Part shown: piece after piece, positions 19,243 to 44,068 of the stretch | How the letters are laid out: each line of letters begins with the position of its first letter | How positions within the stretch are numbered: the stretch's first letter is position 1 | Virus record (IMG/VR): IMGVR_UViG_3300042541_001363 | Span: 19,118 to 83,117 of that record | Origin: a virus | Lineage: Duplodnaviria > Caudoviricetes | Direction: 5' to 3' (one strand) | Length of the DNA stretch: 64,000 nt | The notes under the pieces: model-generated | Database searches by the model: none | What the model was told of the DNA's origin: nothing | What the model saw: only the letters and a program-made list of their open reading frames with translations | Made by a program: the position numbers and the translations under genes

Positions 19243-20895
19243 ATGGCAAAAAAAACAACAGCAGAATTCATAACTCAATGTTCATTGAAACATGATAACA
19301 AATATGATTATTCATTGGTTGAATATGATGGTGTTGGTAATAAAGTTAAGATTATATGTCCAGAACATGGTGTTTTTGAAAAGATAGCTAGAGACCATAG
19401 CAATGGTCAAGGTTGTCCTTCATGTTCTAAGATAGAAAAATATTCATCATATAAATTACCTAAAGAAGATGTGATTAATTCGTTTATAGCTAAGCATGGT
19501 AATAAGTACGATTATTCGTTGGTTGAGTATGTTAATTTACAAACCAATATTAAAATAATATGTCCAATTCATGGTGAGTTTGAACAAAGACCATGTGTTC
19601 ATTTAAGGGGTGAAGGTTGTAAAAAATGTTATTTTAAATATAAAGTAGATAATTTAAATTTGGGTGATGTATTCATTTCTAACGCAAATATTAAATTTGA
19701 CGATTATTATGATTATTCACTAGTTAACTACCAAAAACATAATATTGTTGTTGATATTATTTGTCCTAAACATGGTGTTTTTAGTCAAAGACCAGATGTT
19801 CACCTAAGAGGTGTTGGTTGTATTAAATGTTATAAAGAAAATAAATTAATTAATGATAAATTAAAATTTATTAAAGACTCAAAAAAAACACATAAAGATA
19901 ATTATGATTATTCGCTAGTTGATTATGTTTCTGCAACAGAAAAAGTTAAAATTATTTGTACAGAACATGGCGAATTTGAACAGACACCCAATAATCATTT
20001 AAGTAAAAAAAATAAATGCCCTAAATGTGCTTTAAAATATAATTTAAGTCAAGATTCTGTTAATAATTATTTAAAATCATTAAATATAGATACAGAATTA
20101 AATAATAGATTAATATTAAATGGTAAAGAATTAGATATATACATACCCTCACGTAACCTAGCAATAGAATATAATGGTTTATATTGGCATTCTGAAGAAT
20201 ATATATCTTCAAACTATCATCTAAATAAAACAATTGAATGTGAAAAACAAGGTATTCAATTAATTCATGTATTTGAAGATGAATGGTTGTATAAACAAGA
20301 TATAGTTAAGTCTAGACTATCAAATATACTAGGATTGACACCCAGCAAGATATATGCTAGAAAAACTACAATAAGAGAAGTATCCCCTAAAGACTCTAAA
20401 CTATTTTTAGATACCAATCATATACAAGGCAATGTTAATTCAAGTATTAAACTAGGGTTATATTATAATGATGAGCTAGTGTCATTGATGACGTTTGGAA
20501 CACTTAGAAAATCAATGGGTGGGATTTCTAAAGAAGGTTCATATGAGTTATTTAGATTCTGTAATAAGTTAAATACAACAATTATTGGAGGTGCTGATAA
20601 GTTACTTAAGCATTTTATAAAGACATGTAAACCCATAGAAATCATTAGCTATGCTGACCGAAGATGGAGTCAAGGTGGGTTGTATGAGAAATTAGGGTTT
20701 ACACATATACATGATTCTAAACCAAACTATTGGTATATAATAGGTACCAACAGAGAGTATAGGTTTAAATATAGAAAAGATGTTCTAGTTAAAGAAGGAT
20801 TTGACCCATCTAAAACAGAACATCAGATTATGTTATACAGAGGTTTATATAGAATATACGACTGTGGTAATAAGAAATATGTATTAAGTATTTAA
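19243..20895 (+). CDS. Hef-like putative homing endonuclease copy 1: Zn-ribbon repeats + Vsr/EDxHD-like nuclease + Mom-like GNAT domain
   Basis: Four YDYSLV.Y...KIICP.HG.F.Q...H..G.GC..C repeats; ELDIYIP...AIEYNGLYWHS...HVFEDEW; C-terminal ELFRFC...GGADKLL...IISYADRRWSQG.LY..LGF. Confidence 0.75.
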   Translation: MAKKTTAEFITQCSLKHDNKYDYSLVEYDGVGNKVKIICPEHGVFEKIARDHSNGQGCPSCSKIEKYSSYKLPKEDVINSFIAKHGNKYDYSLVEYVNLQTNIKIICPIHGEFEQRPCVHLRGEGCKKCYFKYKVDNLNLGDVFISNANIKFDDYYDYSLVNYQKHNIVVDIICPKHGVFSQRPDVHLRGVGCIKCYKENKLINDKLKFIKDSKKTHKDNYDYSLVDYVSATEKVKIICTEHGEFEQTPNNHLSKKNKCPKCALKYNLSQDSVNNYLKSLNIDTELNNRLILNGKELDIYIPSRNLAIEYNGLYWHSEEYISSNYHLNKTIECEKQGIQLIHVFEDEWLYKQDIVKSRLSNILGLTPSKIYARKTTIREVSPKDSKLFLDTNHIQGNVNSSIKLGLYYNDELVSLMTFGTLRKSMGGISKEGSYELFRFCNKLNTTIIGGADKLLKHFIKTCKPIEIISYADRRWSQGGLYEKLGFTHIHDSKPNYWYIIGTNREYRFKYRKDVLVKEGFDPSKTEHQIMLYRGLYRIYDCGNKKYVLSI

Positions 20896-21146
20896 CCTAA
20901 AAATTGTTTGGTTAAATCTGCCGCCTCACGAATTGTTGCAAAAGAAACATTTGGTATAAGTAATTGTTTACCAACTTTAACAATTGGAACTTGGTCGGAT
21001 TTTGTTATTTCATGTATTTGATTATACTCAGCTTCATTTTCTTCTAAGTTAACATCAACATCAATAAATTCTATACCTTCTTCAGTAAGGATATTTTTTA
21101 ATTCCGTACAGTACGGACAATCTTCTATGGAGTAAATTTTAATCAT
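20892..21146 (-). CDS. glutaredoxin
   Basis: CPYC active site, then VPIV.VG. Confidence 0.9.
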   Translation of the reverse strand: MIKIYSIEDCPYCTELKNILTEEGIEFIDVDVNLEENEAEYNQIHEITKSDQVPIVKVGKQLLIPNVSFATIREAADLTKQFLG

Positions 21147-24099
21147 TTAATTCATTCATTATTTCATCCATCAAATTGATGGTTATTTCTTCTTCACTTA
21201 ATTTATTATCACCCATGATGGTATCAATAACATCTTTTTTGTTTTTAAGTGTTTCCCACATTCTTACAGATATTGTATCCATAAATAGTTGATAATAAAC
21301 GTTTACATCATTTTTCTGCCCAATTCGAAAGCTGCGGTCTTCTGCTTGTTCATTATTTCCAGTTACCCAATCAAATGAGTTGAAAATAACAACTGTTGCT
21401 TCAGTAAGTGTAATACCAACACCAGCACTTTTGATATTTCCAACAAACACTTTAACCTTTGGGTTATTTTGAAAATCATCTACTGATTTTTGTTTGGCTT
21501 TGGTTGTCATTGGTCCGTTGTGTTTAACAGATACTTTACCAAAGTGGTTAGCTAATACTTCTAGTTCTTCAGTAAACGATGTAAATATTATCACTTTTCT
21601 ACCCATTTCTATTGCATTTTCAACCATTTCTATTGTTGAAGGAATAGCTTGCATAGCGATGAATTTTCTTAACAATATAAGTTCAACTAAGTCTTTTTGT
21701 GATTCAATGGATTTTTTACCTTCAGCTTTTCTTTTAGCCATATATTCATCCCACAATAAATCATACATCTTCCAACCATTAAGGTCTAATTTATGATACA
21801 TCGGTGTAACTACTTTATCTGGCATATCCAATGTATCAGTTTTTAAACGTCTAAGAATTATGTTTTTTGTTTTTGCGGCTAGTTCTTCTAGATTACTAGC
21901 ACCATCAGTCAACCATATTTGTTTTCTTTGCCCATTTTTAAGCGTTCTCATGAACTGTCTACCATCACAATACCTAACAGCAAAGTGTTTCCAATTTTCT
22001 GCAATAGGAGACTTAATTATCTTTAATAAATTAAAGAAATCCATTGGTCTATTTGCAACTGGTGTACCAGTCAGTAACCATACCTTATTTATATTATAGT
22101 TTACAGATAAATCAACCATAATCTTACCGCGAATACTTTCATGGTTTTTTAGATAATGAGCTTCATCAATGATAGCCAAATCAAACTTTTGGTTAGCTAA
22201 ATCTCTAATCAATACTTTTTCTGGTTCACCTTCTTTTTTCTTCTTGCCATCAGTCAACGTATGGAAATTTTTAAGTATATCAAAGTTTATAATTGTAAAC
22301 TTGGCAGTATTGAATTTCTTACCATCAATAATCGCTGTATCATCACAAAAAACGTTGATTTCACGTTCCCAATTTATCTTGGTTGATGATGGGGCTACAA
22401 TAAGAATCCTTTCAGCACCACTTTCTAAAGCAGCAATTATTGATTGGGTAGTGTTATGAGTAACGATTGCGTGTTCAGTAACATATAATTTATCTGGTGC
22501 GTCAACAGCGATACAAACAGACTCACCTTGACCACATGGTTCAATATTTTTTATATATCTACCAATTTTATATTTTTTAGGTGGGTTGTATTCAACAGCT
22601 TTTCGTTTTAATCTAAACGGATTAAATTGTTCTGGCATTTTAATATTTAATCTGTAAGCTTTTCTACATTCAACAACAGTACCATCTGGTTTTTTATATT
22701 TACCAATTTTACTTTTCTTTCTTACAATACCACCCAATGAATGAACAATTTCAGCGACATCATCAGCTAATCTTTCAGATACAGTACAATATTCAGTACC
22801 ACTAAAATTATCGTTTTTTGATTTCATACAATGACCATCAGTATCCATAAGACCTTGTAATATTGCAAGTCTATTTTCTATACTTGAATATTTATAAATT
22901 TCTGGGATAAACTTAGTCTCTGAACGTGTATGTTCTAATTTTAAATCTTTTATATCAGAATTATGATTATTGATATAAGCTTTTCTTTTATTACCATCAG
23001 TTTTATGTTCAGTTAATAAAATACCTTCAAATAATTCATCAAAATCATCTTTATGTAATTGGATGGCAATTGCTGATGATTTGGTAAAATGACCATCACC
23101 TAAAGCTAAACCTAACAAATACGGTTCAATAGGTAAAGTATCATTATTTTCAAATTCAATTGGTTTAACAATTGGAATTTGCCATTTAGAATTGCCGTTT
23201 TTTTGTTTATAGTATGTTTTAAACTTGTAAGGTTTTTTTCCATTCCTACCAGTTCCTTTTAGTTCTAAAGTTAAATTTTCATCCAACATTTGTTCAGTAC
23301 TAAGTGTTCTATATTTGTTTTCCCTAGTTTTAGAATTTTCACCAGAATTACATGAAGATACAGTCCATAAATGTTCTTTCCCAACCAAAATACTATATCC
23401 ATCATTAAATGTTACTTTATATAAGTCTTTAACCCCTTGTGGAAAAACACCTATAATATTACATGCTTTACCATTTGAACCAATAATTTGGTCACCAACT
23501 TTTAAATCACCAATTTTACGTCTACCATTTGGTGTAAATACTTGATTACTAGTTACCTCTAGTTTTCCCATGCCCATGCCATCTGCTAATATACATCCGT
23601 TTCGTGAAAGAAGGAATTTAACACCTTCTTCTTGGTGTTGATAAAGCTTTTTACCTTGTTTAGATAATATGTCGTTATATCGAGTAAAATCAACATCTAC
23701 GTTTATTGGTTCGAAGTATGGGTCATCGGTTACTTGTGTTTTGGGTAACCAATACATTTTAGATGAAGGTTGGTTTTTATTTAGTTTTCCATATACATGG
23801 AATGTCTTTTCGGTTTCGGCTAATATAAATTCGATAAGAATTCTTTGAGGAACAAATGATAAAGCGTCTTGTTTTTGTAATTCTAACCCTAAGTATTCTG
23901 TGATATTTATAACACGATTAATCATTTGTGGTTCTCTATCGTGATTTCGAACTATATACTTTGATTGGTTGTCAGTAAGTAATATTTTTTTGTTTTTTTT
24001 GTATTCGTGTTTGAGTTTGAGTATATATGGGTTGATACCTTCATAGTTTTCTAACAATGAAAGTGCACTATGGCCTCGTAAGTCATCTAAGTTAATCAA
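21139..24099 (-). CDS. SNF2-family (HARP-like) helicase with intein
   Basis: LADGMGMGK|T (Walker A), IIDEAHYLK, LLTGTPVANRP, KSAGVGITLTEA, QAEDRSFRIGQ. Confidence 0.93.
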   Translation of the reverse strand: MINLDDLRGHSALSLLENYEGINPYILKLKHEYKKNKKILLTDNQSKYIVRNHDREPQMINRVINITEYLGLELQKQDALSFVPQRILIEFILAETEKTFHVYGKLNKNQPSSKMYWLPKTQVTDDPYFEPINVDVDFTRYNDILSKQGKKLYQHQEEGVKFLLSRNGCILADGMGMGKLEVTSNQVFTPNGRRKIGDLKVGDQIIGSNGKACNIIGVFPQGVKDLYKVTFNDGYSILVGKEHLWTVSSCNSGENSKTRENKYRTLSTEQMLDENLTLELKGTGRNGKKPYKFKTYYKQKNGNSKWQIPIVKPIEFENNDTLPIEPYLLGLALGDGHFTKSSAIAIQLHKDDFDELFEGILLTEHKTDGNKRKAYINNHNSDIKDLKLEHTRSETKFIPEIYKYSSIENRLAILQGLMDTDGHCMKSKNDNFSGTEYCTVSERLADDVAEIVHSLGGIVRKKSKIGKYKKPDGTVVECRKAYRLNIKMPEQFNPFRLKRKAVEYNPPKKYKIGRYIKNIEPCGQGESVCIAVDAPDKLYVTEHAIVTHNTTQSIIAALESGAERILIVAPSSTKINWEREINVFCDDTAIIDGKKFNTAKFTIINFDILKNFHTLTDGKKKKEGEPEKVLIRDLANQKFDLAIIDEAHYLKNHESIRGKIMVDLSVNYNINKVWLLTGTPVANRPMDFFNLLKIIKSPIAENWKHFAVRYCDGRQFMRTLKNGQRKQIWLTDGASNLEELAAKTKNIILRRLKTDTLDMPDKVVTPMYHKLDLNGWKMYDLLWDEYMAKRKAEGKKSIESQKDLVELILLRKFIAMQAIPSTIEMVENAIEMGRKVIIFTSFTEELEVLANHFGKVSVKHNGPMTTKAKQKSVDDFQNNPKVKVFVGNIKSAGVGITLTEATVVIFNSFDWVTGNNEQAEDRSFRIGQKNDVNVYYQLFMDTISVRMWETLKNKKDVIDTIMGDNKLSEEEITINLMDEIMNELND
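22453..23562 (-). mobile_element. class-3-type intein with LAGLIDADG endonuclease (370 aa) in the SNF2 Walker A
   Basis: Starts LEVTSNQVFTPNG; block B EHLWTV; LLGLALGDG and LQGLMDTDG; block F SVCIAV; ends VTHN followed by T(+1). Confidence 0.9.
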
Positions 24100-24195
24100 A
24101 ATGTTTTAATTTTTATTAAATATACTAATTATTTTAAATAAAATCAATAGTTTATTGGTTATTAATAAATTTATAAATATTTATCTATAAAAGCC

Positions 24196-32928: not shown

Positions 32929-32975
32929 AAATATATATGGTGGAACTTGATGAAACGGTGGTATAGGATTGGTTA

Positions 32976-34433
32976 TTATCGCATGTTGTGTAATATTTTT
33001 AAAGTATATTTTTTATTACCACAATCATAGATTCTATTAAAACCCCTTTCTTCCATTATTTCACGTTCCGTTTTGTTTTTATCAAAACCTTCTTTAACTA
33101 GAACGTCTTTTCTGTATTTAAATCTATATTCTCGTTTACCTTTATTAATATAGAAATAATTTGGTTTTGAATTATGTATGAACTCAAACCCTAATTTTTT
33201 ATACAACCCACCTTGACTCCATCTTCTATCCGCATAACTAATAATTTCTTTTGGTTTATATGTTTTTATAAAATACTTAAGTAACTTATCAGCCCCTCCA
33301 ATAACCGTTGTATCTAGTTTATTACAGAATCTAAATAATTCATATGCGTCTTCAATTGATTTATTTCCCATTGATTTTCTTAAACAACCAAATGTCATCA
33401 ACGAAACTAACTCATCATTATAATATAAACCTATATTATATTTAGAATTAATACCACCTTGAATATGGTTATTGTTAAGAAATTCTTTAGCTTCTTTTGA
33501 AGATATCTCTTTAATAATACATTTTCTACCGTATATTTTGATAGGTGTTAATCCTAAGATATTCATTAATCTAGATTTAACTATATCTTGTTTATCTCTC
33601 CATTCATCTTCAAATATGTGAATTAATTGTATTCCTTGTTGTTCACATAACTCAGTTTTATTCAAATGGTAATTATTTATTGTAAATTTATCAGAATGCC
33701 AATATAAACCATCAAATTCGATTGCTAAATTATATGATGGGATGTATATATCTAATTCTAATGGTTGTATTATTTTTCTAGTGTTTTCTTCAAATAATAA
33801 TTTTAATGAAGAAATAAATTCTTTAACTTCACCTTCTAATTTATCATAAACTAAACCACATTTAGGGCAACCTTTACCAGATAAATGTGAATAAGGAGCT
33901 TGTTCAAAAATACCATGCTCAACACAAATAAATTTTGTTTTAGTATGTGAATTAACATAATTTACCAATGAATAATCATATTTATCATTATGTTTTTCTT
34001 TGGCTTCATTAATAAATATATTATTAGATTTTATGCTTTTTTCTTTAATCTTTTCAATACCACAAAAGTAACAACCTTGACCTAGTAAATGTTTACTAGG
34101 GTTTTGTTCAAATTCACCATGTATCGGACATATTATTTTTACTTTTGTGTTTGCATTAACATAGTTTGTTTTACTATACACATATTTACTATCATGTATT
34201 AATAAAGACTTATTAATAAAATCTTCATTGGTTTTTGTTTGATTTTGATTGGCACATTTCTTACAGCTACTACCCTTTAAATGATTATTTGGTGTTTGTT
34301 CAAATTCACCATGTATTGGGCATATTATTTTTACCTTAATATTATTCTTTATATAATCAACATTATTATAATCATATCGTTCACCGTGTATTAATTTTGC
34401 TGTATTGATAAATTTTATTGTTTTACTCACCAT
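32976..34433 (-). CDS. Hef-like putative homing endonuclease copy 2 (Zn-ribbon + nuclease + Mom-like GNAT)
   Basis: Three CP.HG...GC..C repeats, AIEFDGLYWHS, IISYADRRWSQGGLY. Confidence 0.75.
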   Translation of the reverse strand: MVSKTIKFINTAKLIHGERYDYNNVDYIKNNIKVKIICPIHGEFEQTPNNHLKGSSCKKCANQNQTKTNEDFINKSLLIHDSKYVYSKTNYVNANTKVKIICPIHGEFEQNPSKHLLGQGCYFCGIEKIKEKSIKSNNIFINEAKEKHNDKYDYSLVNYVNSHTKTKFICVEHGIFEQAPYSHLSGKGCPKCGLVYDKLEGEVKEFISSLKLLFEENTRKIIQPLELDIYIPSYNLAIEFDGLYWHSDKFTINNYHLNKTELCEQQGIQLIHIFEDEWRDKQDIVKSRLMNILGLTPIKIYGRKCIIKEISSKEAKEFLNNNHIQGGINSKYNIGLYYNDELVSLMTFGCLRKSMGNKSIEDAYELFRFCNKLDTTVIGGADKLLKYFIKTYKPKEIISYADRRWSQGGLYKKLGFEFIHNSKPNYFYINKGKREYRFKYRKDVLVKEGFDKNKTEREIMEERGFNRIYDCGNKKYTLKILHNMR

Positions 34434-34738: not shown

Positions 34739-37591
34739 ATGCCAAATCAAGTATTCGTAAGTCCAGGTGTTTATACATCAGAAAGAGACTTAACATTTAT
34801 AACACGTAACGTTGGTGTTACAACTTTAGGTATGGTTGGTGAGACTAAAATAGGTCCAGCGTTCCAACCTATTTTTATTACCAATTATGGTGAATTCCAA
34901 TCATTCTTTGGTGGTTTAGATGCTACTATCGTTAAAGATAATGGTGCACCAAAATATGAGTTACCTTATATCGCAAAATCATACTTATCACAATCAAACC
35001 AATTATTCGTAACAAGAGTATTAGGGTTTTCTGGTTTTGATGCTGGTTTGGCTTGGGGTATTGCGTTAGATGCTGCAATGGATAATACAACAGTTTTTGA
35101 AACAGCAACCAATGTATCATACGCACCATTAATTAGCTATACAGCTACATCTGCTGGCACAATTGTTACTCTTGTATCTACTGAACCTACAATCCAAACC
35201 CTTATTAATGAAGGTTTAATAAGTAGTCAATTAGCGTTCTTAGGTAATGCATCTGTCGGTGCTACAGCTAATATCTCACAAACATTTTATAAAAGTGGTT
35301 CAGTATTCTATGGTGCTAGTTTTAGTTTGTCAGTTAATGCTAATAACTTATTAACACATGGTACTTCACCTATTACTGGTACTACATCTGGTCTTGTTAC
35401 TAAATTTAGTGGTTCTTCTTATTCTGATGTTGAAAATCAAATAATAGCGTTGTTACGTTCTAGAGGTTCTGTTGATACAACTTCTCAATTACCGTTGTTC
35501 GAAATTACTGGTTCAACTAATATTGGATTTGATTCTACAGTGGTTACATCTACTAATGACCCACTTGGATTATTTTCAATTAGTGGTACGTCAACTAAAC
35601 AAGGTGATTTTGATTATACATTATCTTTTGATAGTACTAAAACTAATAAAATTACTAAAGTATTAGGAAGAAATAATGATGATGGTAATACAGCATTGTT
35701 TGTTGAAGAGTATTTTGAAAACTTATTTAATACACATAATAAATTAGGTAAGATTAGAGGTATTAAACAAGCGTTGGTGCCTTATGTTAATGATTTTAGT
35801 GATTATTTACAAGAATACCAACCAGCTATCACTCCATGGGTAGTTTCTGAATTACGTGGTAATAAAGTATTAAAATTATTTAGATTTACAACTATTTCTG
35901 ATGGTAATGCAGCAAATGAGCAATTTAAAATCTCTATTGTTAATATTAAACCAGATACCAAAGAATTTGATGTTCGTGTTAGAAGTTTCTACGATACAGA
36001 TGCTTCACCAGTGGTGTTGGAATCTTTCTCAAAATGTGTTATGGACCCATCAGCTAATAATTATATTGGTAGAATGATTGGTACATTAGATGGTGTATAT
36101 ACTTCTAAATCTGCTTATGTGTTGATAGAAATTGATGACACAACAAACAATAGTGATGCATTCCCAGCTGGTTTTGTTGGATATCCAATACGTGATTACC
36201 AAACTAACTCAAATAATACAGTTGTTAATCCATCTATGTTATATAAAACTAAATATGAACCATTTGAAAAGATAAATAAAATATTTTTAGGTCTTTCTAA
36301 TAGTGTTGGTATTGATGCTGACTTCTTTGATTACAAAGGTATACCTCAAACTACAAACCCTAATGTATGGACTGGTTTAACTAACGGTTTCCATATGGAT
36401 AATGCTGCTTCTGCTGTAACTATCGATAACGTAAAAGTAATAATTAATAATTCTGGTGATACATACTCACCAACGTTTAAATTTGATACTGGTAATTGGC
36501 AGTTTAGAACTGAATCTGGATTGATTAATGGTCCTTACGAAAAATTATACGCACGTAAATTCACATTTGTACCTTTCGGTGGTTTTGATGGATGGGATGA
36601 TTATAGAACAAGAAGAACAAACACTGATAGATATACAATCAACGGTACTTATGGTGCTGCTGGTCTTTCTAACGGTACGACTTTCAAAAATAGAACACTT
36701 ACTAGTGGAGATTTAGGTATCAATTCTGATTACTATGCTTACTTAGAAGCTATTTGGACATTTAAAAATCCAGAAGCTGTTAATATCAACGTGTTTACAA
36801 CACCAGGTATTGATAATTGGGATAACACTAACTTAATCGAGGCTGCAATTGATATGACTGAAATGGATAGAGCTGACTCATTGTACATCATGACAACACC
36901 AGATACTTCTGCTGATGGTCAAATATTAGATGTAAATGAAGTTGTTGATAGATTAGATGGTAACTTTGATAGTAACTACTCTTGTACTTATTGGCCATGG
37001 ATTCAAATAAATGATGCTGAAAATAACGTGCTTATATACGTTCCACCAACACGTGACGTAGTAAGAAACATTGCCTTGACTGACAACATTTCTTACCCAT
37101 GGTTCGCGGTTGCTGGGGTTAATAGAGGTGATGTTGACGCTATTCAAGCAAGAGCTAAATTAACACTTGCTGGTAGAGATGTTCTTTATGAAAATAGAAT
37201 TAACCCAATAGCTACTTTCGCATCTGATGGTATCAAAATATGGGGTAATAAAACTCTTCAAGTTAAAGAAACAGCTCTTAATAGAATCAACGTTAGACGT
37301 TTATTGTTACAAGCTAGAAAACTTGTTTCTGCTGTAGGTATCAGATTGTTGTTCGAACAAAACGATACTATCGTAAGAAACCAATTCTTAAGCCAAGTTA
37401 ACCCAATCTTAGACAATATTAGAAGTCAAAGAGGTTTAACAGACTTTAGAGTCGTTCTTTCAAATGACCCAGAAGATTTTGATAAAAACCAATTGGTGGG
37501 TCAAATCTTCTTGAAACCAACGCGAGCTTTAGAGTTTATTCAGGTGGAATTTATAATAATGAATACTGGGGCTTCATTTAATAATATTTAA
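34739..37591 (+). CDS. gp18: tail sheath protein (T4 gp18-like)
   Basis: FVSPGVYTSERDLT, YPWFAVAG.NRG, LYENRINPI, IWGNKTL, RINVRRLL, FEQND, KPTRALEFI. Confidence 0.95.
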   Translation: MPNQVFVSPGVYTSERDLTFITRNVGVTTLGMVGETKIGPAFQPIFITNYGEFQSFFGGLDATIVKDNGAPKYELPYIAKSYLSQSNQLFVTRVLGFSGFDAGLAWGIALDAAMDNTTVFETATNVSYAPLISYTATSAGTIVTLVSTEPTIQTLINEGLISSQLAFLGNASVGATANISQTFYKSGSVFYGASFSLSVNANNLLTHGTSPITGTTSGLVTKFSGSSYSDVENQIIALLRSRGSVDTTSQLPLFEITGSTNIGFDSTVVTSTNDPLGLFSISGTSTKQGDFDYTLSFDSTKTNKITKVLGRNNDDGNTALFVEEYFENLFNTHNKLGKIRGIKQALVPYVNDFSDYLQEYQPAITPWVVSELRGNKVLKLFRFTTISDGNAANEQFKISIVNIKPDTKEFDVRVRSFYDTDASPVVLESFSKCVMDPSANNYIGRMIGTLDGVYTSKSAYVLIEIDDTTNNSDAFPAGFVGYPIRDYQTNSNNTVVNPSMLYKTKYEPFEKINKIFLGLSNSVGIDADFFDYKGIPQTTNPNVWTGLTNGFHMDNAASAVTIDNVKVIINNSGDTYSPTFKFDTGNWQFRTESGLINGPYEKLYARKFTFVPFGGFDGWDDYRTRRTNTDRYTINGTYGAAGLSNGTTFKNRTLTSGDLGINSDYYAYLEAIWTFKNPEAVNINVFTTPGIDNWDNTNLIEAAIDMTEMDRADSLYIMTTPDTSADGQILDVNEVVDRLDGNFDSNYSCTYWPWIQINDAENNVLIYVPPTRDVVRNIALTDNISYPWFAVAGVNRGDVDAIQARAKLTLAGRDVLYENRINPIATFASDGIKIWGNKTLQVKETALNRINVRRLLLQARKLVSAVGIRLLFEQNDTIVRNQFLSQVNPILDNIRSQRGLTDFRVVLSNDPEDFDKNQLVGQIFLKPTRALEFIQVEFIIMNTGASFNNI

Positions 37592-37610
37592 AATAACCCA
37601 AATAAAAATA

Positions 37611-37643
37611 AAAAACCCTAACTTAATAAGTTGGGGTTTTTTT
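37611..37643. terminator. bidirectional intrinsic terminator
   Basis: aaaaa-ccctaact-taata-agttgggg-ttttttt; overlaps the stop of the convergent nuclease gene. Confidence 0.8.
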
Positions 37644-39434
37644 ATATACCATAGTTCCGCAATCATATATTCTATATATTTTCCTTTCTAGCATTATTTG
37701 ATGCTCTGTAAGGTCTTTATTGTACCCTTGATTAACTAGTATTGATTTTCTAAAACCAAATCTATGTTTTCTTTTATTATTTATTATATAGTGATAATTA
37801 GGATTACTATTATGGGTGTTTATAAATTTTAATTTATTATATAACCCACCTTGACTCCATCTTCTATCAGCGTAGCTAATAATTTCTATGGGTTTATATG
37901 TTTTTATGAAATATTTTAATAACTTATCAGCTCCACCAATAACTGTTGTATCTAGTTTGTTGCAGAATCTAAGTAATTCGTATTGATTTGAGTCACCACC
38001 CATAGCTATCCTACCCTTACCAAATGTCATCAAAGATACTAACTCATCATTATAATACAACCCTAGTTTGATGCTTGAGTTGACGTTGCCTTGAATATGA
38101 TTGGTATCTAAAAACTCTTTAGAATATTTAGGTGACACTTCTTTTACAACTGTTTTCCTAGCGTATATTTTATTGGGTGTTAATCCTAAGATATTTGATA
38201 GTCTAGATTTAACTATATCTTGTTTATCTCTCCACTCGTCTTCAAATATGTGAATTAATTGTATACCTTTTTTCTCACATAATTCGGTTTTATTTAGATG
38301 ATAGTTTGATGGTTTATGTATTTCAGAATGCCAATATAAACCATCAAATTCGATTGCTAGGTTATGTGATGGTATGTATATATCTAATTCTAATGGTGAT
38401 ATTATTTTTTTAGTATTTTCAATATATACCACACCAATTGATTTGATAAACTCTTTCACTTCACCTTCAGATTTATCATAATTTAAACCGCATTTAGGAC
38501 AACCACAACCTCTTAAATGTGAATCAGCTAATTGTGAAAATTCACCATGTTCTGAACATATAATATTTACATAATCTTTACAATTAAGGTAGTTAGATAA
38601 TGAATAATCATATCTATTGTTATGTGTTAAATTAGCTTCTATTATAAACTCTTCAGTTGTTTTTGTTTTCTTTTCAGTTATTGATAACCCTTTGCATTTT
38701 GGGCATCCATTACCACCTAAATGATTATTTGGTGCTTGCTCAAATTCACCATGAATTGGGCATATAATTTTAATTTTATTTTTGCTATTTGTATAATTAA
38801 CAAGTGAATAATCATATTTATCACTATGTGTTTTTTTAGCTTTTTCTATAAATAAAGTTGCATCCATAAAATACCCACTACATTTTGGACAACCATGACC
38901 TTTTTTATGTGTATTAAATGTCTGTTCAAATATACCATGTTCTTTACATCTAATCTTAATAGGTGTTTTTTCAGATACGTATTCAACCATTGAATAATCG
39001 TATTTATCACCATGGACTTGTTTTAATGCATTAATAACATCATTATTGTCTTTATCTCTACCAAAACATTTTGGACAGTTGCTACCACTCATATGAAGTT
39101 TAGCATATTGTTTAAACTCACCATGTTCACTACAAATAATGGTAACATTACTATTAGCATTTTTATATTCACATAAAGAGTAATCATATTTATCACCATG
39201 TATTTTTTTTGATTTTTCAATAAATTCTTCTGGTGATATTTTATAATTAACACTACATTTAGGACAACCTTGCTTTCTACTTATATGTTTTTCTGGTGTT
39301 TGTTCGAAAACACCATGCTCTGGACAAACTATTTTAACTTTCTTTTTAGTACTCACATATTCAACCAATGAATAATCATACTTATTAGAATGTATTAAAA
39401 TAGAACTCTCTTTAAACTTATTTAATTTTTCCAT
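37623..39434 (-). CDS. Hef-like putative homing endonuclease copy 3 (five Zn-ribbon repeats + nuclease + Mom-like GNAT)
   Basis: Same architecture as 19243..20895; AIEFDGLYWHS; ELLRFC...IISYADRRW. Confidence 0.75.
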   Translation of the reverse strand: MEKLNKFKESSILIHSNKYDYSLVEYVSTKKKVKIVCPEHGVFEQTPEKHISRKQGCPKCSVNYKISPEEFIEKSKKIHGDKYDYSLCEYKNANSNVTIICSEHGEFKQYAKLHMSGSNCPKCFGRDKDNNDVINALKQVHGDKYDYSMVEYVSEKTPIKIRCKEHGIFEQTFNTHKKGHGCPKCSGYFMDATLFIEKAKKTHSDKYDYSLVNYTNSKNKIKIICPIHGEFEQAPNNHLGGNGCPKCKGLSITEKKTKTTEEFIIEANLTHNNRYDYSLSNYLNCKDYVNIICSEHGEFSQLADSHLRGCGCPKCGLNYDKSEGEVKEFIKSIGVVYIENTKKIISPLELDIYIPSHNLAIEFDGLYWHSEIHKPSNYHLNKTELCEKKGIQLIHIFEDEWRDKQDIVKSRLSNILGLTPNKIYARKTVVKEVSPKYSKEFLDTNHIQGNVNSSIKLGLYYNDELVSLMTFGKGRIAMGGDSNQYELLRFCNKLDTTVIGGADKLLKYFIKTYKPIEIISYADRRWSQGGLYNKLKFINTHNSNPNYHYIINNKRKHRFGFRKSILVNQGYNKDLTEHQIMLERKIYRIYDCGTMVYKKTPTY

Positions 39435-39438
39435 ATTA

Positions 39439-39470
39439 CAAATATACTAATAAATATTTAATAAGTCAAA
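39439..39470 (-). promoter_or_regulatory. Bacteroidota-type promoter, probably leaderless
   Basis: Minus strand TTTG - 20 nt - TATATTTG, ending 4 nt before ATG 39434. Confidence 0.65.
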
Positions 39471-39552
39471 CAATTAATTAATATTTTGTCATTATTAATA
39501 ATGGTGATGTTTTTTTTTTATTTATGTAGATATTTATAACTAAACACATAAT

Positions 39553-39957: not shown

Positions 39958-40253
39958 TCATTATTTTCTTCTAATATACCATAGATAAATTCAATTATTT
40001 CTGGAATACCGTATTTTTCTTGCCATTCACCTTCTTTTAGGTTTAATGTATCATATTTTTTATCATATAACACAAAGAGTTCTTCACTAGAAAGCTTATG
40101 TTCTATGTTATTTTTAATTAGAATGGATTTAACCAATCCACATATCATTTCACCAGTAATATAGGTTATCCAATCACATTCATCTAATAGTTTATCCAAA
40201 GATTCGTTATATTGTGATAAAAGTTGTTTTTGTGTTATGTCTAATTTTTTCAT
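39954..40253 (-). CDS. hypothetical protein
   Basis: 99-aa ORF overlapping the stop of the upstream nuclease gene by 4 nt. Confidence 0.55.
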   Translation of the reverse strand: MKKLDITQKQLLSQYNESLDKLLDECDWITYITGEMICGLVKSILIKNNIEHKLSSEELFVLYDKKYDTLNLKEGEWQEKYGIPEIIEFIYGILEENND

Positions 40254-41803
40254 ATTTTAATTTTTTTACGATAAAGCATATTACCACAATCATATATTCT
40301 ATATATACCTCTTTCTAACATGATTTCACGTTCTGTTTTGATTGGGTCAAATCCTTCTTTGATTAATATGTCTTTTCTATATTTAAACCTATATTCTCTT
40401 TGTGTGCCTAATATATACCAATAGTTAGGTTTAGAATTATGAACAAACTCAAACCCTAATTTTTCATATAAATTGCCTTGACTCCATCTTCTATCAGCGT
40501 AGCTAATGATTTCTTTTGGGTTATGTGTCTTTATAAAGTATTTTAATAGTTTATCAGCACCTCCAATAATTGTTGTGTTTAACTTATTACAAAACCTAAA
40601 TAACTCATATGTACCATCGATGTTAGTAGCTCCCATTGATTTTCTTAATAATCCAAATGTCATAAGACTAACTAATTCATCATTGTGATATAAACCTATT
40701 TTAATTTTAGCATTCACATTACCTTGTATGTGGTTATTATCTAAAAATACTTTAGAATCTTTAGGTGAGACTTCTTTTATAACACAATTTCTACCATATA
40801 TTTTATTGGGTGTTAATCCTAGTATATTTGATAGTCTAGATTTAACTATCTCTTGTTTATTCAACCATTCATCTTCAAATACATGTATTAATTTAATTCC
40901 TAAAGATTCACACAGTTCAGTTTTATTTAAATGATAATCATTATCTTTATATAACTCAGAATGCCAATATAAACCATTGTATTCAATGGCTAAGTTATGA
41001 GATTGGATGTATATATCTAGTTCTTTACCATTTAGTATTGTTCTATTGTTATTGGTAGGGGTTACGTTTAATGTTTCTAAGAAATTAAAAAGTTCAGTTT
41101 CTGGATAACTTAAATTACTTTTTAAACTAACACATGTTTTACAAATTGGTATTTTATTTCTAAGTCTATAATTTATTTCATTGTTGTTGAATTCACTTAT
41201 GTTTTCACAAGTTTCACATTTAATTTTATAAAGACCACAATCATTATTTATTATATTTATATTTGAGAATTTATCTTTATTTTCAATTCTAATTTTAACT
41301 TTTTTAGATTGTGCTGGGTATTCAGTACCATATTTTTTAATAGAGCCTTCTTTAAATATTTGTTTAACTCTATGTAATTTCATTACATTATCAACACCGT
41401 ATCTTTCTATATTTGTTTTTATTGTTTTTAATTTAATATCGTCAGACGAAAAAGGTGTTGAACCACCATATTTAACATTATTTGTTTTTTTTACATTTTC
41501 TTTATGTTCATTGTTTTTGTTTGTACATTTTAATGAACAATACTTACCATAGCCATTATTTAATGATTTACCAAATTTTAATTGGTTTTCACATTCTAAA
41601 CATTTTGGGTGTTCTGTTTTGTTATTTAAGAAGTACCAAATTTTTTCTTTAAATGTATAATTTACCAATCCATGGGTATTAGAATAGTTTATAATTTCAT
41701 TATATAAATCATTAAATTTATTTTTTAACTTGTTTTCACACGTTTTCCAACCAGATTTATTATCTGTTAAAAAAAAATTAGAATAATCAAGTTTATTTTC
41801 CAT
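40250..41803 (-). CDS. Hef-like putative homing endonuclease copy 4 (K.TN..KYG repeats + nuclease + Mom-like GNAT)
   Basis: N-terminal Y.NFF.TDNKSGWKT.E, C..C zinc motifs, repeated KTN..KYG; then AIEYNGLYWHS and the GNAT-like domain. Confidence 0.75.
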   Translation of the reverse strand: MENKLDYSNFFLTDNKSGWKTCENKLKNKFNDLYNEIINYSNTHGLVNYTFKEKIWYFLNNKTEHPKCLECENQLKFGKSLNNGYGKYCSLKCTNKNNEHKENVKKTNNVKYGGSTPFSSDDIKLKTIKTNIERYGVDNVMKLHRVKQIFKEGSIKKYGTEYPAQSKKVKIRIENKDKFSNINIINNDCGLYKIKCETCENISEFNNNEINYRLRNKIPICKTCVSLKSNLSYPETELFNFLETLNVTPTNNNRTILNGKELDIYIQSHNLAIEYNGLYWHSELYKDNDYHLNKTELCESLGIKLIHVFEDEWLNKQEIVKSRLSNILGLTPNKIYGRNCVIKEVSPKDSKVFLDNNHIQGNVNAKIKIGLYHNDELVSLMTFGLLRKSMGATNIDGTYELFRFCNKLNTTIIGGADKLLKYFIKTHNPKEIISYADRRWSQGNLYEKLGFEFVHNSKPNYWYILGTQREYRFKYRKDILIKEGFDPIKTEREIMLERGIYRIYDCGNMLYRKKIKI

Positions 41804-41820
41804 TTATAGATATTTATTAA

Positions 41821-41851
41821 CAAAGATACTAATATTTATCTTTAAAACAAA
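41821..41851 (-). promoter_or_regulatory. Bacteroidota-type promoter
   Basis: Minus strand TTTG - 19 nt - TATCTTTG. Confidence 0.6.
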
Positions 41852-41883
41852 TAAAATAACACAAAAAATTAAAATTTTATAAC

Positions 41884-42372
41884 ATGAGTGACTTATTAAT
41901 GAAGATGCCGTTACCATATGAACCAAAGAAAAAGAATCGTTGGTTAATAACATTCCCTTCAGATTTAGGGATTCAACAATGGTGGTTATCATCAGCATCA
42001 AGACCTTCAATTTCACAAAGTGAAGTAGAAATACCTTTCCTAAACACATCTACATGGGTTATTGGTCGATTTACATGGGAATCAATTGATGTAACTTTCC
42101 GTGACCCGATTGGTCCATCTGCTGCACAAGCAATTATGGAATGGGTACGTTTACATTCTGAATCAATCACTGGTCGTCAAGGTTACGCGGCTGGATACAA
42201 GAGACCAGTTGAACTTGAAATGCTTGACCCAACGGGTGTTGTTATTGAGAAATGGTTATTGGATGGTACCATGTTAACGAACGTTGCATTCGGTGATTTA
42301 TCGATGGACGACGATGGTATCGCAGAAATAACTACAACATTACGTTTTGATAGAGCAATATTACTATTTTAA
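41884..42372 (+). CDS. gp19: tail tube protein (T4 gp19-like)
   Basis: YEPKKKNRWLITF, RPS.....VEIPFLN...V.GRFTWESI.VTFRD, LDPTG.VIEKW.L; lies downstream of the sheath gene. Confidence 0.9.
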   Translation: MSDLLMKMPLPYEPKKKNRWLITFPSDLGIQQWWLSSASRPSISQSEVEIPFLNTSTWVIGRFTWESIDVTFRDPIGPSAAQAIMEWVRLHSESITGRQGYAAGYKRPVELEMLDPTGVVIEKWLLDGTMLTNVAFGDLSMDDDGIAEITTTLRFDRAILLF

Positions 42373-42395
42373 AATATTGATAATCAGAGATTTAC

Positions 42396-42436
42396 AAAAT
42401 ACCATATCATAATAAAACGATATGGTATTTTTTTTT
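42396..42436 (+). terminator. intrinsic terminator after the tail tube gene
   Basis: aaaataccatatc-ataataaaac-gatatggtatttt followed by a T-run. Confidence 0.8.
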
Positions 42437-42457
42437 ATATTAAATTTTCATTTATCC

Positions 42458-42488
42458 TTGTATACGTATATTTTTATCAGTATATTTG
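42458..42488 (+). promoter_or_regulatory. Bacteroidota-type promoter
   Basis: TTG - 20 nt - TATATTTG (42481-88). Confidence 0.65.
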
Positions 42489-42505
42489 TATAAAAATAAA
42501 ATATT

Positions 42506-44068
42506 ATGGATTATAAAAATTTCTTCACTACTGATAATAAATCTGGGTGGAAAACTAGGGAGTCGTTATTAAAAAAAAATGAACCAAAAATATATGATGA
42601 ATTAAAAATTTTCATAGTTAAAAATAATTTAAACGAATTACCATTTAAACAACAAGTTTGGCATTTTATTAATAATGACACTGAGATTAAAAAATGTTTA
42701 GGTTGTGGTGTTAATGTAGAATTTAGAGATACTCTACTTAAAGGTTATCGTAATTTTTGTTCTTTACCATGTGCAAATAGTAGTGGTTTATTAGAGAAAA
42801 GAGCGTCAGAAGCGATTAAAATTAAATATGGTGTTGATAGTTTTCCTCAACATGAGTCGTTTGTTAAAAAAGTTAAAGCAACTAAATTAGCTAAGTATGG
42901 TAATGAGAATTATAATAATATTTCTCAAACACTAATAACAAAAGAAATATTATATGGTGATAAAAACTACTCAAATTTAGATAAAAACGCTATAACAACT
43001 AGAGAAAATTTATTACTAAGGTTGCAGTCAAAAACTTTAGATGAATTATTAAATTATGGTATAAATGATAAACACATAACCCTTTTATGTTCTTCATGTA
43101 AAATGGAGTATGATATTTATCAAGGGTTATTTAAATATAGATGTAGTGTTAATGTTAAACCTTGTACTATATGTAATCCTATACGTGAAACTAACAGTAT
43201 CCAAGAGAAAGAATTATTTGAGTTTGTTAAGGAGATATTACCTAACGAAATAGTAAATAATAAAGATAGAAGTATCATTTCTAATATTAAACCGTTAGAA
43301 TTAGATATATACATACCATCTCGTAACATAGCCATAGAATATAATGGTTTATATTGGCATTCTGATAAATTCGAATCCGATTCTCACCTTAAAGATAAAA
43401 CAGTTAAATGTGAAGAAAAGGGTGTTGATTTGATACATGTTTTTGAGGATGAATGGATTTTTAAGAAAGATATTGTTAAAAGTGTTATCAATAGTAAATT
43501 AGGGTTATTTGATAATGTTATTTTTGGTAGAAAGTGCATTATAAAAGAAGTATCACCTAAAGAATCCAAAAAGTTTTTGGATAATAACCATTTACAAGGT
43601 ACTATTCCGTCTAAAATTAAATTAGGGTTATATTATAATGATGAATTGGTTTCATTGATGACATTTGGTTCTTTAAGAAAAGCTATGGGGTCAAAAAGTG
43701 TTGATGGGTCATTTGAATTATATCGTTTCGCTAATAAATTAAATACTAGTGTATTGGGTTCTTTTTCAAAATTGTTAAAATACTTTATAACCACTTATAA
43801 CCCAAATTCAATTCTAACTTTTTCTGATAATAGATATTTTAGTGGTGAAGTTTATAAAAATAATGGTTTTGAATTTATACATAATTCAAGACCAAATTAT
43901 TTTTATGTGATTAACAATAAACGTGAATATAGATTTAAATACAGAAAAGATGTTTTGGTTAAAGAAGGATTTGACCCGTCTAAATCAGAACGTCAAATAA
44001 TGAAAGAAAGGGGTTTTAATAGAATCTATGATTGTGGTAATAAGAAATGGATATTAAAAATTAAATAA
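42506..44068 (+). CDS. Hef-like putative homing endonuclease copy 5 (KYG repeats + nuclease + Mom-like GNAT)
   Basis: N-terminus MDYKNFFTTDNKSGWKTRE like copy 4; AIEYNGLYWHS; ELYRFAN...ILTFSDNRY.SG.VY..NGF. Confidence 0.75.
   Translation: MDYKNFFTTDNKSGWKTRESLLKKNEPKIYDELKIFIVKNNLNELPFKQQVWHFINNDTEIKKCLGCGVNVEFRDTLLKGYRNFCSLPCANSSGLLEKRASEAIKIKYGVDSFPQHESFVKKVKATKLAKYGNENYNNISQTLITKEILYGDKNYSNLDKNAITTRENLLLRLQSKTLDELLNYGINDKHITLLCSSCKMEYDIYQGLFKYRCSVNVKPCTICNPIRETNSIQEKELFEFVKEILPNEIVNNKDRSIISNIKPLELDIYIPSRNIAIEYNGLYWHSDKFESDSHLKDKTVKCEEKGVDLIHVFEDEWIFKKDIVKSVINSKLGLFDNVIFGRKCIIKEVSPKESKKFLDNNHLQGTIPSKIKLGLYYNDELVSLMTFGSLRKAMGSKSVDGSFELYRFANKLNTSVLGSFSKLLKYFITTYNPNSILTFSDNRYFSGEVYKNNGFEFIHNSRPNYFYVINNKREYRFKYRKDVLVKEGFDPSKSERQIMKERGFNRIYDCGNKKWILKIK

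What the first reader, a model, noticed from the sequence alone, without database searches (positions are those of the whole stretch)
19243..44068. Five-copy family of nucleases fused to a Mom-like GNAT domain: possible single-gene cut-and-protect elements
Seen: five ORFs (19243, 32976, 37623, 40250, 42506) share a C-terminal ~300 aa. It comprises a Vsr/EDxHD-like nuclease (ELDIYIP..AIE[Y/F][N/D]GLYWHS..HxFEDEW) followed by I.EVS...K.FL..NH.QG...LGLY.NDELVSLMTFG...ELxRF...GG..KLL...IISYAD.RWS.G.LY..LGF. By my recollection this motif order matches the GNAT-fold phage Mu Mom protein, which modifies adenine in DNA. Inference: each gene may combine a cleavage domain with a DNA-acylating domain, marking its own genome and cutting competitors. 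That would be a restriction-modification-like homing element in one polypeptide. The GNAT could alternatively act as a reader. Mom-like/nuclease fusions may already have been noted computationally, but I know of no functional test.
Basis: partly seen in the sequence, partly recalled or inferred. Interest (0 to 1): 0.8.

Follow-up and report, generated by a model that had tools for sequence, protein, structure and literature searches.

The report
Five Hef-type homing endonucleases, Mom-like tail
An uncultured jumbo phage carries five copies of a known selfish "homing" nuclease gene, each ending in a domain related to phage Mu's DNA-modifying enzyme Mom; the fusion and the cut-and-protect idea are already published, but I found no test of what the Mom-like half does.

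Summary
Five ORFs share a C-terminal cassette of about 290 aa (55-75% identity), behind two kinds of zinc-ribbon front end.

- **Nuclease half.** It has the Vsr-like fold of the EDxHD homing endonuclease I-Bth0305I, and all catalytic residues are present.
- **Mom-like half.** It is a GNAT whose best structural match is the crystal structure of Mu Mom.
- **Known family.** These are "Hef-like" free-standing homing endonucleases, a very large family matched in 1,019 phage records. Over 17,000 50%-identity clusters match the Mom-like domain alone.
- **Mobility.** In related phages the same sheath-tube module carries zero to three such genes, as expected of mobile genes.
- **Prior art.** Iyer et al. 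2021 already noted Mom-REase fusions in jumbo phages and proposed protect-and-cut. This scan has noted the same gene type 89 times in at least 72 other genomes.
- **Mom-like pocket.** The equivalents of Mu Mom H58, R111, D149, R151 and Y159 are kept in all five copies. Essential S124 is Asp in four copies and Ser only in the fifth. S124 and R151 vary across the family, while His, Gln, Arg and Tyr never do. So the pocket is under selection, but Mom-type chemistry is not assured.

Verdict: new members of a known kind. The role of the Mom-like domain remains an open, testable question.

The parts
19243..20895 (+). Hef1: Hef-like homing endonuclease, 550 aa. Four treble-clef Zn-ribbon repeats (nt 19243-20049), EDxHD nuclease (about 20050-20340), Mom-like GNAT (about 20341-20892).
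   Evidence: ORF and translation. Pfam DUF723/DUF4379 and Mom at 23 bits. PHROG 559 at 3e-141. Repeats at aa 21, 89, 156 and 221. Nuclease E/D/H/D all present, and the S124-equivalent is Asp. It lies between a 415-aa ORF next to the DNA polymerase and the helicase gene.
32976..34433 (-). Hef2: 485 aa. Three Zn-ribbon repeats (nt 33837-34433), EDxHD nuclease (33546-33836), Mom-like GNAT (32979-33545).
   Evidence: Pfam Mom at 35 bits, above the 27.1 cut-off. phmmer hit to 3R3P, E 0.0045. AF2 model of aa 200-485: pLDDT 97.1, pTM 0.92. Best folds: 8BV8 Mom and 3R3P. The S124-equivalent is Asp. It lies between an 861-aa gene and the tail sheath gene.
37623..39434 (-). Hef3: 603 aa. Five Zn-ribbon repeats (nt 38469-39434), EDxHD nuclease (38178-38468), Mom-like GNAT (37626-38177).
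   Evidence: It sits directly after the tail sheath gene. That gap is 83 nt in relatives without the gene (L009, L011) and 1962 nt here. The cassette of the positional orthologue in L004 is 99% identical. The S124-equivalent is Asp.
40250..41803 (-). Hef4: 517 aa. DUF7487-type front end (nt 41102-41803), EDxHD nuclease (40811-41101), Mom-like GNAT (40253-40810).
   Evidence: DUF7487, 1.8e-9; PHROG 3339, 1.8e-132. It lies head-to-head with the tail tube gene, 80 nt apart. A Hef gene is present at this site in 19 of 74 related loci. The L004 orthologue is 97% identical. The S124-equivalent is Asp.
42506..44068 (+). Hef5: 520 aa. DUF7487-like front end (nt 42506-43219), EDxHD nuclease (43220-43510), Mom-like GNAT (43511-44065).
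   Evidence: Mom, 27.0 bits; 29 bits, over the cut-off. It sits directly after the tail tube gene. A Hef gene is present there in only 4 of 65 related loci, and the gap is 84 nt in L006. It is the only copy with Ser at the S124-equivalent.
34739..37591 (+). Tail sheath gene. Conserved neighbour and likely target region of Hef2 and Hef3.
   Evidence: PHROG 23 tail sheath, 6.9e-55. It is bracketed by Hef2 and Hef3.
41884..42372 (+). Tail tube gene. Conserved neighbour and likely target region of Hef4 and Hef5.
   Evidence: PHROG 4542 tail tube, 1.8e-26. It is 93-97% aa-identical in the 80 loci kept, out of 547 related IMG/VR stretches.

Best explanation
These are five free-standing homing endonuclease genes of the Hef-like family, in a fragment of an uncultured jumbo phage of about 360 kb.

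**Architecture.** Each protein has three parts. The variable N-terminal array (three to five treble-clef zinc ribbons, or a DUF7487-type module) probably chooses the DNA target; this is inferred. The middle is a Vsr-like EDxHD nuclease that cuts. The C-terminus is a Mom-like GNAT domain packed rigidly against the nuclease.

**Homing (inferred from family behaviour).** During co-infection the nuclease would cut the conserved neighbouring gene region of a relative that lacks the gene: DNA polymerase/helicase, tail sheath or tail tube. Recombinational repair would then copy the endonuclease gene across.

**The Mom-like half.** It is almost the same in all five copies although their front ends differ, so it does a generic job and does not set specificity. 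Its pocket residues are under strong selection. I think it most likely engages the DNA beside the cut and flips a base into that pocket. Whether it also transfers an acyl or aminoacyl group is unproven. I put that at roughly even odds for the family at large. I put it lower, about 30%, for the four copies here that carry Asp in place of Mom's essential Ser124.
For: **Shown**
- Five intact paralogues share the cassette.
- The nuclease fold matches I-Bth0305I (3R3P: E 1.1e-5, TM 0.75-0.77, rmsd 2.5 over 93 columns), then Vsr. The sequence match aligns its catalytic Asp, His and Asp.
- The nuclease E/D/H/D residues are present in all five copies.
- PHROG 559 and 3339 'homing endonuclease' match at E 1e-95 to 1e-165.
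- 1,019 phage records hold relatives, many annotated 'Hef-like homing endonuclease'.
- Taylor et al. 2011 place Hef-type enzymes in the EDxHD family (PMC3239194). The review PMC2988022 states that U5 Hef cleaves nrdB.
- Mobility: in 80 related loci with a 93-97% identical tail tube, the sheath-tube module holds zero to three Hef genes at the same intergenic sites. The gaps are 83-175 nt when empty.
- Positional orthologues are 97-99% identical. Some sites are held by different lineages in different phages.
- Mom-like half: Pfam Mom; hhalign against stand-alone Moms gives 88% probability, E 2.9e-6; the AF2 model has pLDDT 97; the top Foldseek hit is 8BV8 Mu Mom, E 6.9e-8; VIA Z is 13.2 with 158 residues aligned.
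- Pocket: in 273 family members the equivalents of H58, R111 and Y159, plus a Gln, are 100% invariant.
- Loss of the D149/R151 pair goes with loss of nuclease residues (p = 6.6e-5), so both halves are kept together in working copies.

**Inferred**
- Target choice by the zinc-ribbon arrays.
- Cleavage of neighbouring conserved genes.
- Base flipping, by analogy with the AF3 model of Mom in PMC13219725.
Against: - No cleavage, homing or DNA-binding data exist for these proteins. The link to U5 Hef rests on database annotation and the literature, because I could not fetch the U5 sequence.
- A search for endonuclease-associated SNPs in the tail tube gene gave no localised target or co-conversion signal.
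- Strict invariance of His, Gln, Glu, Arg and Tyr in the pocket, together with a Gly-rich loop (GGA-S/D-KL) like GNAT motif A, looks more like an enzyme active site than a passive DNA clamp. This favours the catalytic rival.
- The conservation figures come from sequences picked by their score to this very domain, which inflates them.
Confidence: 0.75

Rival explanations
1. Cut-and-protect: this is the first reader's idea and the prediction of Iyer et al. 2021. The Mom-like domain is an active DNA adenine acyl- or aminoacyl-transferase. It marks the enzyme's own target site, or the whole phage genome. The fused nuclease then cuts only unmarked DNA of competitors or the host, so the protein acts as a single-chain restriction-modification-like selfish element.
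For: - The prediction is published for jumbo-phage Mom-REase fusions (PMC7824862).
- Fold and family are those of Mom.
- R111, D149 and R151, plus H58 and Y159, are kept in all five copies.
- In 150 representatives, all 17 columns conserved at 97% or more lie in the Mom-like half. They include five Arg/Lys, a His, a Gln, a Glu and two Tyr.
- Where the R151-equivalent is lost, the neighbouring residue is usually Arg.
- The family consensus keeps Ser at the S124 position (112 of 136 representatives).
- The Gly-rich loop before it resembles the cofactor-phosphate loop of canonical GNATs. The role of that Ser is described in PMC7261163.
Against: - Four of the five copies here have Asp where S124A kills Mu Mom.
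- Of 116 representatives with an intact nuclease tetrad, 60 lack at least one of the S/D/R residues essential in Mu Mom. A nuclease that depended on its own modification should not tolerate that.
- Mom's dimer residue W48 is Lys.
- From my own knowledge of the abstract of Sandegren et al. 2005 (paper not held): Hef cleaved DNA of its own phage as well as DNA of phages lacking the gene.
- Also from my own knowledge: no N6-acylated adenine has been reported from well-studied phages that carry Hef-like genes. Rare site-specific marks would escape bulk analysis.
- One modifying copy would be enough for genome-wide protection, yet all five keep the domain.
Confidence: 0.25
2. The genes are not homing elements but phage weapons. 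They would be fixed, domesticated nucleases that degrade host DNA or exclude superinfecting phages, with the Mom-like domain reading a modification state.
For: [quoted passage not shown] All five copies keep intact catalytic residues. Homing endonucleases are known to mediate marker exclusion between phages (background knowledge; see the review PMC2988022).
Against: Presence is patchy among close relatives at identical intergenic sites, next to the most conserved genes. Different lineages occupy the same site. Both are marks of mobile elements, not of fixed domesticated genes. The variable sequence-reading front ends suggest rare long targets rather than bulk DNA degradation.
Confidence: 0.1
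3. The copies are decaying remnants of past invasions and have no present activity.
For: Homing endonuclease genes commonly degenerate after fixation (general knowledge). About 8% of family members sampled have lost a nuclease catalytic residue.
Against: All five ORFs are full length with no stops. All nuclease residues and nearly all pocket residues are intact. Positional orthologues at 97-99% identity show recent spread or strong constraint.
Confidence: 0.05

Closest known systems
Hef of T-even phage U5 and the 'Hef-like' free-standing homing endonucleases (PHROG 559 and 3339; for example F-LimIII, VII, VIII and X of Dickeya phage LIMEstone1, and copies in AR9/PBS1, phiR1-37 and Tenacibaculum PTm1)
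   Same: Whole-length matches to PHROG 559/3339 at E 1e-95 to 1e-165. Identity of 37-47% over 96-99% of the length to proteins annotated Hef-like. Free-standing genes beside conserved genes; F-LimVIII also sits by a tail tube gene (PMC3296691).
   Different: These are new sequences from an uncultured jumbo phage, with under 60% identity to anything in the phage collection. Five copies lie within 25 kb. Four of them carry Asp at the position of Mom Ser124, a state seen in only 5 of 136 representatives.
I-Bth0305I, prototype of the EDxHD (Vsr-like) homing endonuclease family (PDB 3R3P)
   Same: Same nuclease fold (TM 0.75-0.77). The catalytic Asp, His and Asp align. The DNA-binding region lies N-terminal to the nuclease.
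   Different: I-Bth0305I is intron-encoded, uses NUMOD/HTH-type DNA-binding motifs and ends with the nuclease (PMC3239194). The proteins here are free-standing, use zinc-ribbon arrays and carry an extra C-terminal Mom-like domain.
Mom of phage Mu (PDB 8BV8; Pfam PF25680), a Gly-tRNA-dependent DNA adenine N6 modifying enzyme
   Same: GNAT fold with Mom as the top Foldseek match, and the longest aligned stretch among the top ten VIA rows. Equivalents of H58, R111, D149, R151 and Y159 are kept. Extra helices sit between the last strands, where Mom has its essential HTH-like insertion.
   Different: Only 16-22% identity. It is fused to a nuclease rather than standing alone. S124 is Asp in four copies, W48 is Lys and Y59 is Ile/Leu. 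The loop before S124 is Gly-rich (GGA), as in CoA-using GNATs, not NSES as in Mom. No activity has been shown.
Single-chain restriction-modification enzymes (Type IIG/IIC such as MmeI; named from general knowledge, not tested here)
   Same: Nuclease and putative DNA-modifying domain in one polypeptide. This is the logic proposed by Iyer et al. 2021.
   Different: Those use SAM-dependent methyltransferase domains and are cellular defence genes. Here the second domain is a GNAT of unproven activity, and the genes behave as mobile elements of a phage.

Membership tests
EDxHD / Hef-like homing endonucleases | Vsr-like nuclease fold | tested here: met
   AF2 model of P0002 aa 196-296 has pLDDT 93. 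Foldseek top hits are 3R3P (E 1.1e-5, TM 0.75-0.77), then Vsr 1CW0 and 1VSR.
EDxHD / Hef-like homing endonucleases | Catalytic residues of the EDxHD motif (Glu, Asp, His, Asp) | tested here: met
   The phmmer alignment to 3R3P places the Asp of ELDIY, the His of YWHS and the Asp of FEDEW on D196, H213 and D222 (residue numbers from PMC3239194). All five copies carry E, D, H, E and D at these columns.
EDxHD / Hef-like homing endonucleases | Free-standing gene with presence/absence polymorphism beside conserved genes | tested here: met
   Across 80 related loci there are zero to three Hef genes at the post-sheath, pre-tube and post-tube sites. Empty sites have gaps of 83-175 nt.
EDxHD / Hef-like homing endonucleases | Site-specific cleavage near its own locus, and homing in mixed infection | not testable with these tools
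   This needs biochemistry and phage crosses. The SNP association scan in the tube gene was uninformative.
Mom family (PF25680) | Score above Pfam's gathering cut-off (27.1 bits) | tested here: inconclusive
   P0002 scores 35.0 bits and passes. P0005 scores 27.0 as a protein and 29 in the genome scan. P0001, P0003 and P0004 score 20-25 bits, below the cut-off. PHROG 1384 'Mom-like' matches all five at 1e-7 to 1e-12. Profile-profile comparison gives 88% probability.
Mom family (PF25680) | GNAT fold closest to Mu Mom | tested here: met
   Foldseek ranks 1-2 are 8BV8 chains A and B (E 6.9e-8 and 4.2e-7). VIA gives Z 13.2 with 158 residues aligned, tied in Z with generic GNATs that align about 131-136 residues.
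Mom family (PF25680) | Essential residues R111, D149 and R151 (PMC13219725) | tested here: met
   The hhalign register and hmmalign columns give R, D and R in all five copies.
Mom family (PF25680) | Essential Ser124 (S124A is catalytically dead) | tested here: not met
   It is Asp in Hef1 to Hef4 and Ser only in Hef5. It is invariant in 20 of 20 stand-alone Moms.
Mom family (PF25680) | Dimer through W48 | tested here: not met
   The W48 column is Lys in the hhalign alignment.
Mom family (PF25680) | Essential HTH-like insertion between the last strands (Mom residues about 175-209) | tested here: inconclusive
   The model has three short helices at cassette residues 238-263, between strands. The VIA alignment spans Mom residues 37-224. 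I could not inspect the residue-level superposition. The hhalign alignment stops at Mom residue 175.
Mom family (PF25680) | Transfer of glycine from Gly-tRNA to N6 of adenine in dsDNA | not testable with these tools
   This needs the in vitro assay or nucleoside LC-MS described in PMC13219725.
Single-chain restriction-modification (cut-and-protect) | The modification made by the protein blocks its own nuclease | not testable with these tools
   Indirect evidence only: 60 of 116 nuclease-intact representatives lack a residue that is essential in Mu Mom.

The most novel reading that the evidence does not exclude
The Mom-like domain of Hef-type endonucleases is an active DNA adenine acyl- or aminoacyl-transferase. 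Its donor could be a charged tRNA or an acyl-CoA. The Ser-to-Asp change in this phage clade might then shift the donor rather than kill the enzyme. The domain would write a site-specific mark next to the cleavage site. That would make the largest family of phage homing endonucleases single-chain restriction-modification-like selfish elements, with a GNAT instead of a methyltransferase.
Probability: 0.22. Interest if true: 0.75.

Novelty: new member of a known kind. Interest (0 to 1): 0.3.

Why it matters
These five genes are ordinary members of a known and very abundant family, so they add little in themselves.

The family does hold an open question. By the counts here, Mom-like domains fused to nucleases far outnumber stand-alone Moms. 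More than 7,000 90%-identity clusters were found for the cassette, in a search cut off at 8,000 candidates, against 843 for Mu Mom. All the Mom biochemistry I found is on the stand-alone enzyme. The 2026 study built its search profile from sequences containing only Mom domains.

Mom's donor (Gly-tRNA), structure and key residues are now known, so the fused domain can be tested directly. A positive result would reveal a new kind of self/non-self marking in phage-phage competition. A negative one would show a GNAT recruited as a DNA-handling module.

Tried and rejected
1. **Homodimer prediction.** I ran complex prediction on two copies of the nuclease plus Mom-like cassette. The result was no verdict (score 0.00), so it counts neither for nor against dimerisation.
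2. **SNP association.** I tested tail-tube gene SNPs against presence of an upstream or downstream Hef gene, looking for a target-site or co-conversion signal. Associations were weak and scattered; the strongest was the stop-codon base, p = 4.7e-6. They are confounded by relatedness, so the test was uninformative.
3. **Promoter and terminator scan of 32800-44300.** It found fewer promoter-like sites than in shuffled sequence (65 against 88.5). This gives no support for the claim that the genes carry their own promoters, although one 10/12 match sits just upstream of Hef3.
4. **NCBIfam and PADLOC.** There was no curated NCBI family. PADLOC matched only a generic 'HEase' model on the nuclease, and no defence-system model.
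5. **Near-identical DNA in the phage collection.** Nothing useful turned up; the phage is only distantly related to sequenced ones.
6. **Papers not held.** These were Sandegren et al. 2005 (PMC1275590) and Iyer et al. 2009 (PMC2995806). What I say of the 2005 paper beyond the review's sentence is from memory.
7. **A reading I corrected.** I first took S124 to be Ala of the GGA motif, aligning by eye. BLASTP and hhalign both shift the register by one, to Asp/Ser.


Full report
**What is there**

The window is part of an 83-kb IMG/VR virus record judged about 23% complete, which implies a jumbo phage of about 360 kb.

Their alignment shows a shared C-terminal cassette of about 290 residues. Pairwise identity of the cassette is 55-75% in protein and 61-77% in DNA. 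The front ends are of two unrelated kinds:
- Hef1, Hef2 and Hef3 carry four, three and five copies of a treble-clef zinc-ribbon repeat (Pfam DUF723/DUF4379).
- Hef4 carries a DUF7487-type module, and Hef5 has a front end that aligns with it.

These five are the only copies in the record.

**The nuclease half**

- phmmer finds the catalytic domain of I-Bth0305I (PDB 3R3P) at E 0.0045. The Asp of ELDIY, the His of YWHS and the Asp of FEDEW fall on its catalytic D196, H213 and D222.
- A model of this domain alone has pLDDT 93. Its best PDB matches are 3R3P (E 1.1e-5, TM 0.75-0.77, rmsd 2.5 over 93 columns) and then E. coli Vsr.
- All five copies keep the catalytic residues.
- Taylor et al. 2011 had already placed 'Hef type' phage endonucleases in this EDxHD family (PMC3239194).

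**The Mom-like half**

- Pfam's Mom family (PF25680) matches all five. P0002 scores above the curated cut-off, P0005 scores at it, and the other three score below it.
- PHROG 1384 'Mom-like DNA modification protein' matches all five.
- A profile of 62 family members aligns to a profile of 20 stand-alone Moms with 88% probability, E 2.9e-6.
- The AF2 model of the whole cassette is very confident (pLDDT 97.1, pTM 0.92), which suggests that the two domains form one rigid body.
- The top Foldseek hits in the PDB are the two chains of the Mu Mom crystal structure 8BV8 (E 6.9e-8), followed by many GNATs.
- VIA-align gives Mom Z 13.2 with 158 aligned residues. Ordinary GNATs tie in Z but align only about 131-136 residues.

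**What kind of gene this is**

The whole proteins match PHROG 559 and 3339 ('homing endonuclease') at E 1e-95 to 1e-165. tblastn finds relatives in 1,019 phage records, many annotated 'Hef-like homing endonuclease'. They include Tenacibaculum PTm1, AR9/PBS1, phiR1-37, phiKZ-like Pseudomonas phages, and T1-like Salmonella and Klebsiella phages.

The Mom-like domain alone matches 17,650 50%-identity clusters at E <= 1e-3, and 4,209 at E <= 1e-30. Nearly all of the best 150 are proteins of 450-700 aa with the domain at the C-terminus.

**Context and mobility**

The context is that of free-standing homing genes.
- Hef1 lies between the DNA polymerase region and a helicase gene.
- Hef2 and Hef3 bracket the tail sheath gene.
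- Hef4 and Hef5 bracket the tail tube gene.
- Two further homing-endonuclease genes of a GIY-YIG type lie between them.

I fetched 80 related loci whose tail tube protein is 93-97% identical and mapped the genes.
- Many relatives have sheath, a small ORF and tube packed with gaps of 83-175 nt and no Hef gene (for example L002, L003, L009-L011, L036, L054).
- Others carry one or two.
- L004 and L005 carry the same three as the window.

A tree of the cassettes shows positional orthologues at 97-99% identity. It also shows that the same site is held by different lineages in different phages. This patchy, site-bound distribution next to highly conserved genes is what homing produces. In Dickeya phage LIMEstone1 a Hef-like gene likewise sits beside the tail tube gene (PMC3296691).

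**Prior art on the interpretation**

Iyer, Anantharaman, Krishnan, Burroughs and Aravind (2021, PMC7824862, section 3.4.7) made three statements:
- Momylation would protect the phage DNA.
- The nuclease attacks host or superinfecting phage DNA.

I found no functional test of it. The 2026 study that solved Mom's chemistry and structure built its search profile from sequences 'only containing Mom domains' (PMC13219725). This scan has also met the same gene type before on other DNA: 89 notes in at least 72 genomes, with follow-ups reaching the same verdict.

**Does the Mom-like pocket look active?**

Silva et al. 2026 show that Mu Mom transfers glycine from Gly-tRNA to N6 of adenine. R111, S124, D149 and R151 are essential. 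H58, Y59, W48, Y159 and W181 are important, and an HTH-like insertion is required. In 20 stand-alone Moms these residues are invariant.

Using the hhalign register and an hmmalign of 273 family members, the picture is as follows.
- All five copies here keep the equivalents of H58, R111, D149, R151 and Y159.
- Y59 is Ile or Leu, and the dimer residue W48 is Lys.
- S124 is Asp in Hef1 to Hef4 and Ser only in Hef5.

Across the family the His, a neighbouring Gln, the R111 Arg and the Y159 Tyr are invariant in 273 of 273 members. That is more than any nuclease residue, which run at 91-96%. Among 136 representatives with no gap at the scored columns:
- the S124 column is Ser 82%, Asn 9%, Asp 4%;
- D149 is Asp 88%;
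- R151 is Arg only 60%.

When R151 is not Arg, the preceding residue usually is. All 17 columns conserved at 97% or more in 150 representatives lie in the Mom-like half. The caveat is that these representatives were chosen by their score to that half.

Loss of the D149/R151 pair goes with loss of nuclease residues (p = 6.6e-5), so working copies keep both halves. Yet 60 of 116 nuclease-intact representatives lack at least one residue that is essential in Mu Mom. A nuclease that needed its own modification for safety should not allow that.

The loop before the Ser is GGA-S/D-K-L. That is closer to motif A of CoA-using GNATs than to Mom's NSES. Karambelkar et al. 2020 describe this Ser as the GNAT residue that holds the cofactor's pyrophosphate arm (PMC7261163; their S114). 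An Asp there should disfavour a phosphate contact. It could instead mean a different donor; that is speculation.

**Reading**

I am confident (about 0.85-0.9) that these are Hef-type free-standing homing endonuclease genes.

For the Mom-like half the evidence supports a selected, generic, ligand- or base-binding pocket. It is nearly the same in paralogues with different front ends, so it is not the specificity module. Whether it is a transferase cannot be settled from sequence.
- I lean to a DNA-handling role at the cut site for the four Asp-bearing copies.
- I put real acyl transfer at about even odds for the family at large.
- I put the full cut-and-protect scheme at about 0.2-0.25.

From memory of the abstract of Sandegren et al. 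2005 (not held), Hef cleaved DNA of its own phage as well. That argues against effective self-protection. The review by Edgell et al. confirms only that U5 Hef cleaves nrdB.

**Verdict**

- The domain calls are correct.
- The mechanism proposed is already published and untested.
- These are new members of a known kind.
- Interest is modest for this locus. The untested role of the Mom-like domain in such a large family is a fair experimental question, now that Mom's chemistry is known.

Noticed in passing
window 24297-24944 and 29203-30204: Two more free-standing homing-endonuclease genes (PHROG 314/7168; the second also matches PHROG 5123, GIY-YIG). With the five Hef genes that makes seven within 25 kb. 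The Hef genes alone fill about 8.0 kb of the 24.8-kb interval.
   Followed up: partly
window 13122-17984: The DNA polymerase B ORF is 1620 aa, but PHROG polymerase matches cover only about aa 46-722. The rest may be an intein or another insert.
   Followed up: no
window 21139-24099 (-): The helicase ORF of 986 aa has terminase- and primase-like P-loop hits at aa 140-553, ahead of the helicase hits at aa 546-973. Another first-stage note proposes an intein here.
   Followed up: no
window 41884-42372 and loci L002-L081: The tail tube protein is 93-97% identical in the 80 loci kept, out of 547 related IMG/VR stretches. Yet 203 of its 486 nucleotide sites vary. The protein is very tightly constrained, which makes it an ideal homing target.
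   Followed up: partly
window 41804-42049 (-): An 81-aa ORF overlaps the start of the tail tube gene on the other strand. tblastn 'conservation' of it in relatives probably just reflects the conserved tube gene beneath it.
   Followed up: no
loci L004, L005, L045 against the window: The Hef gene after the tube gene in L004/L005 has a cassette closest to the window's Hef1, which sits by the helicase, and not to the window's Hef5 at the same site. So cassettes or whole genes have moved between sites.
   Followed up: partly
window 8396-12709: A 1437-aa repeat-rich protein matches PHROG 25468 in seven stretches. It is probably a fibre.
   Followed up: no
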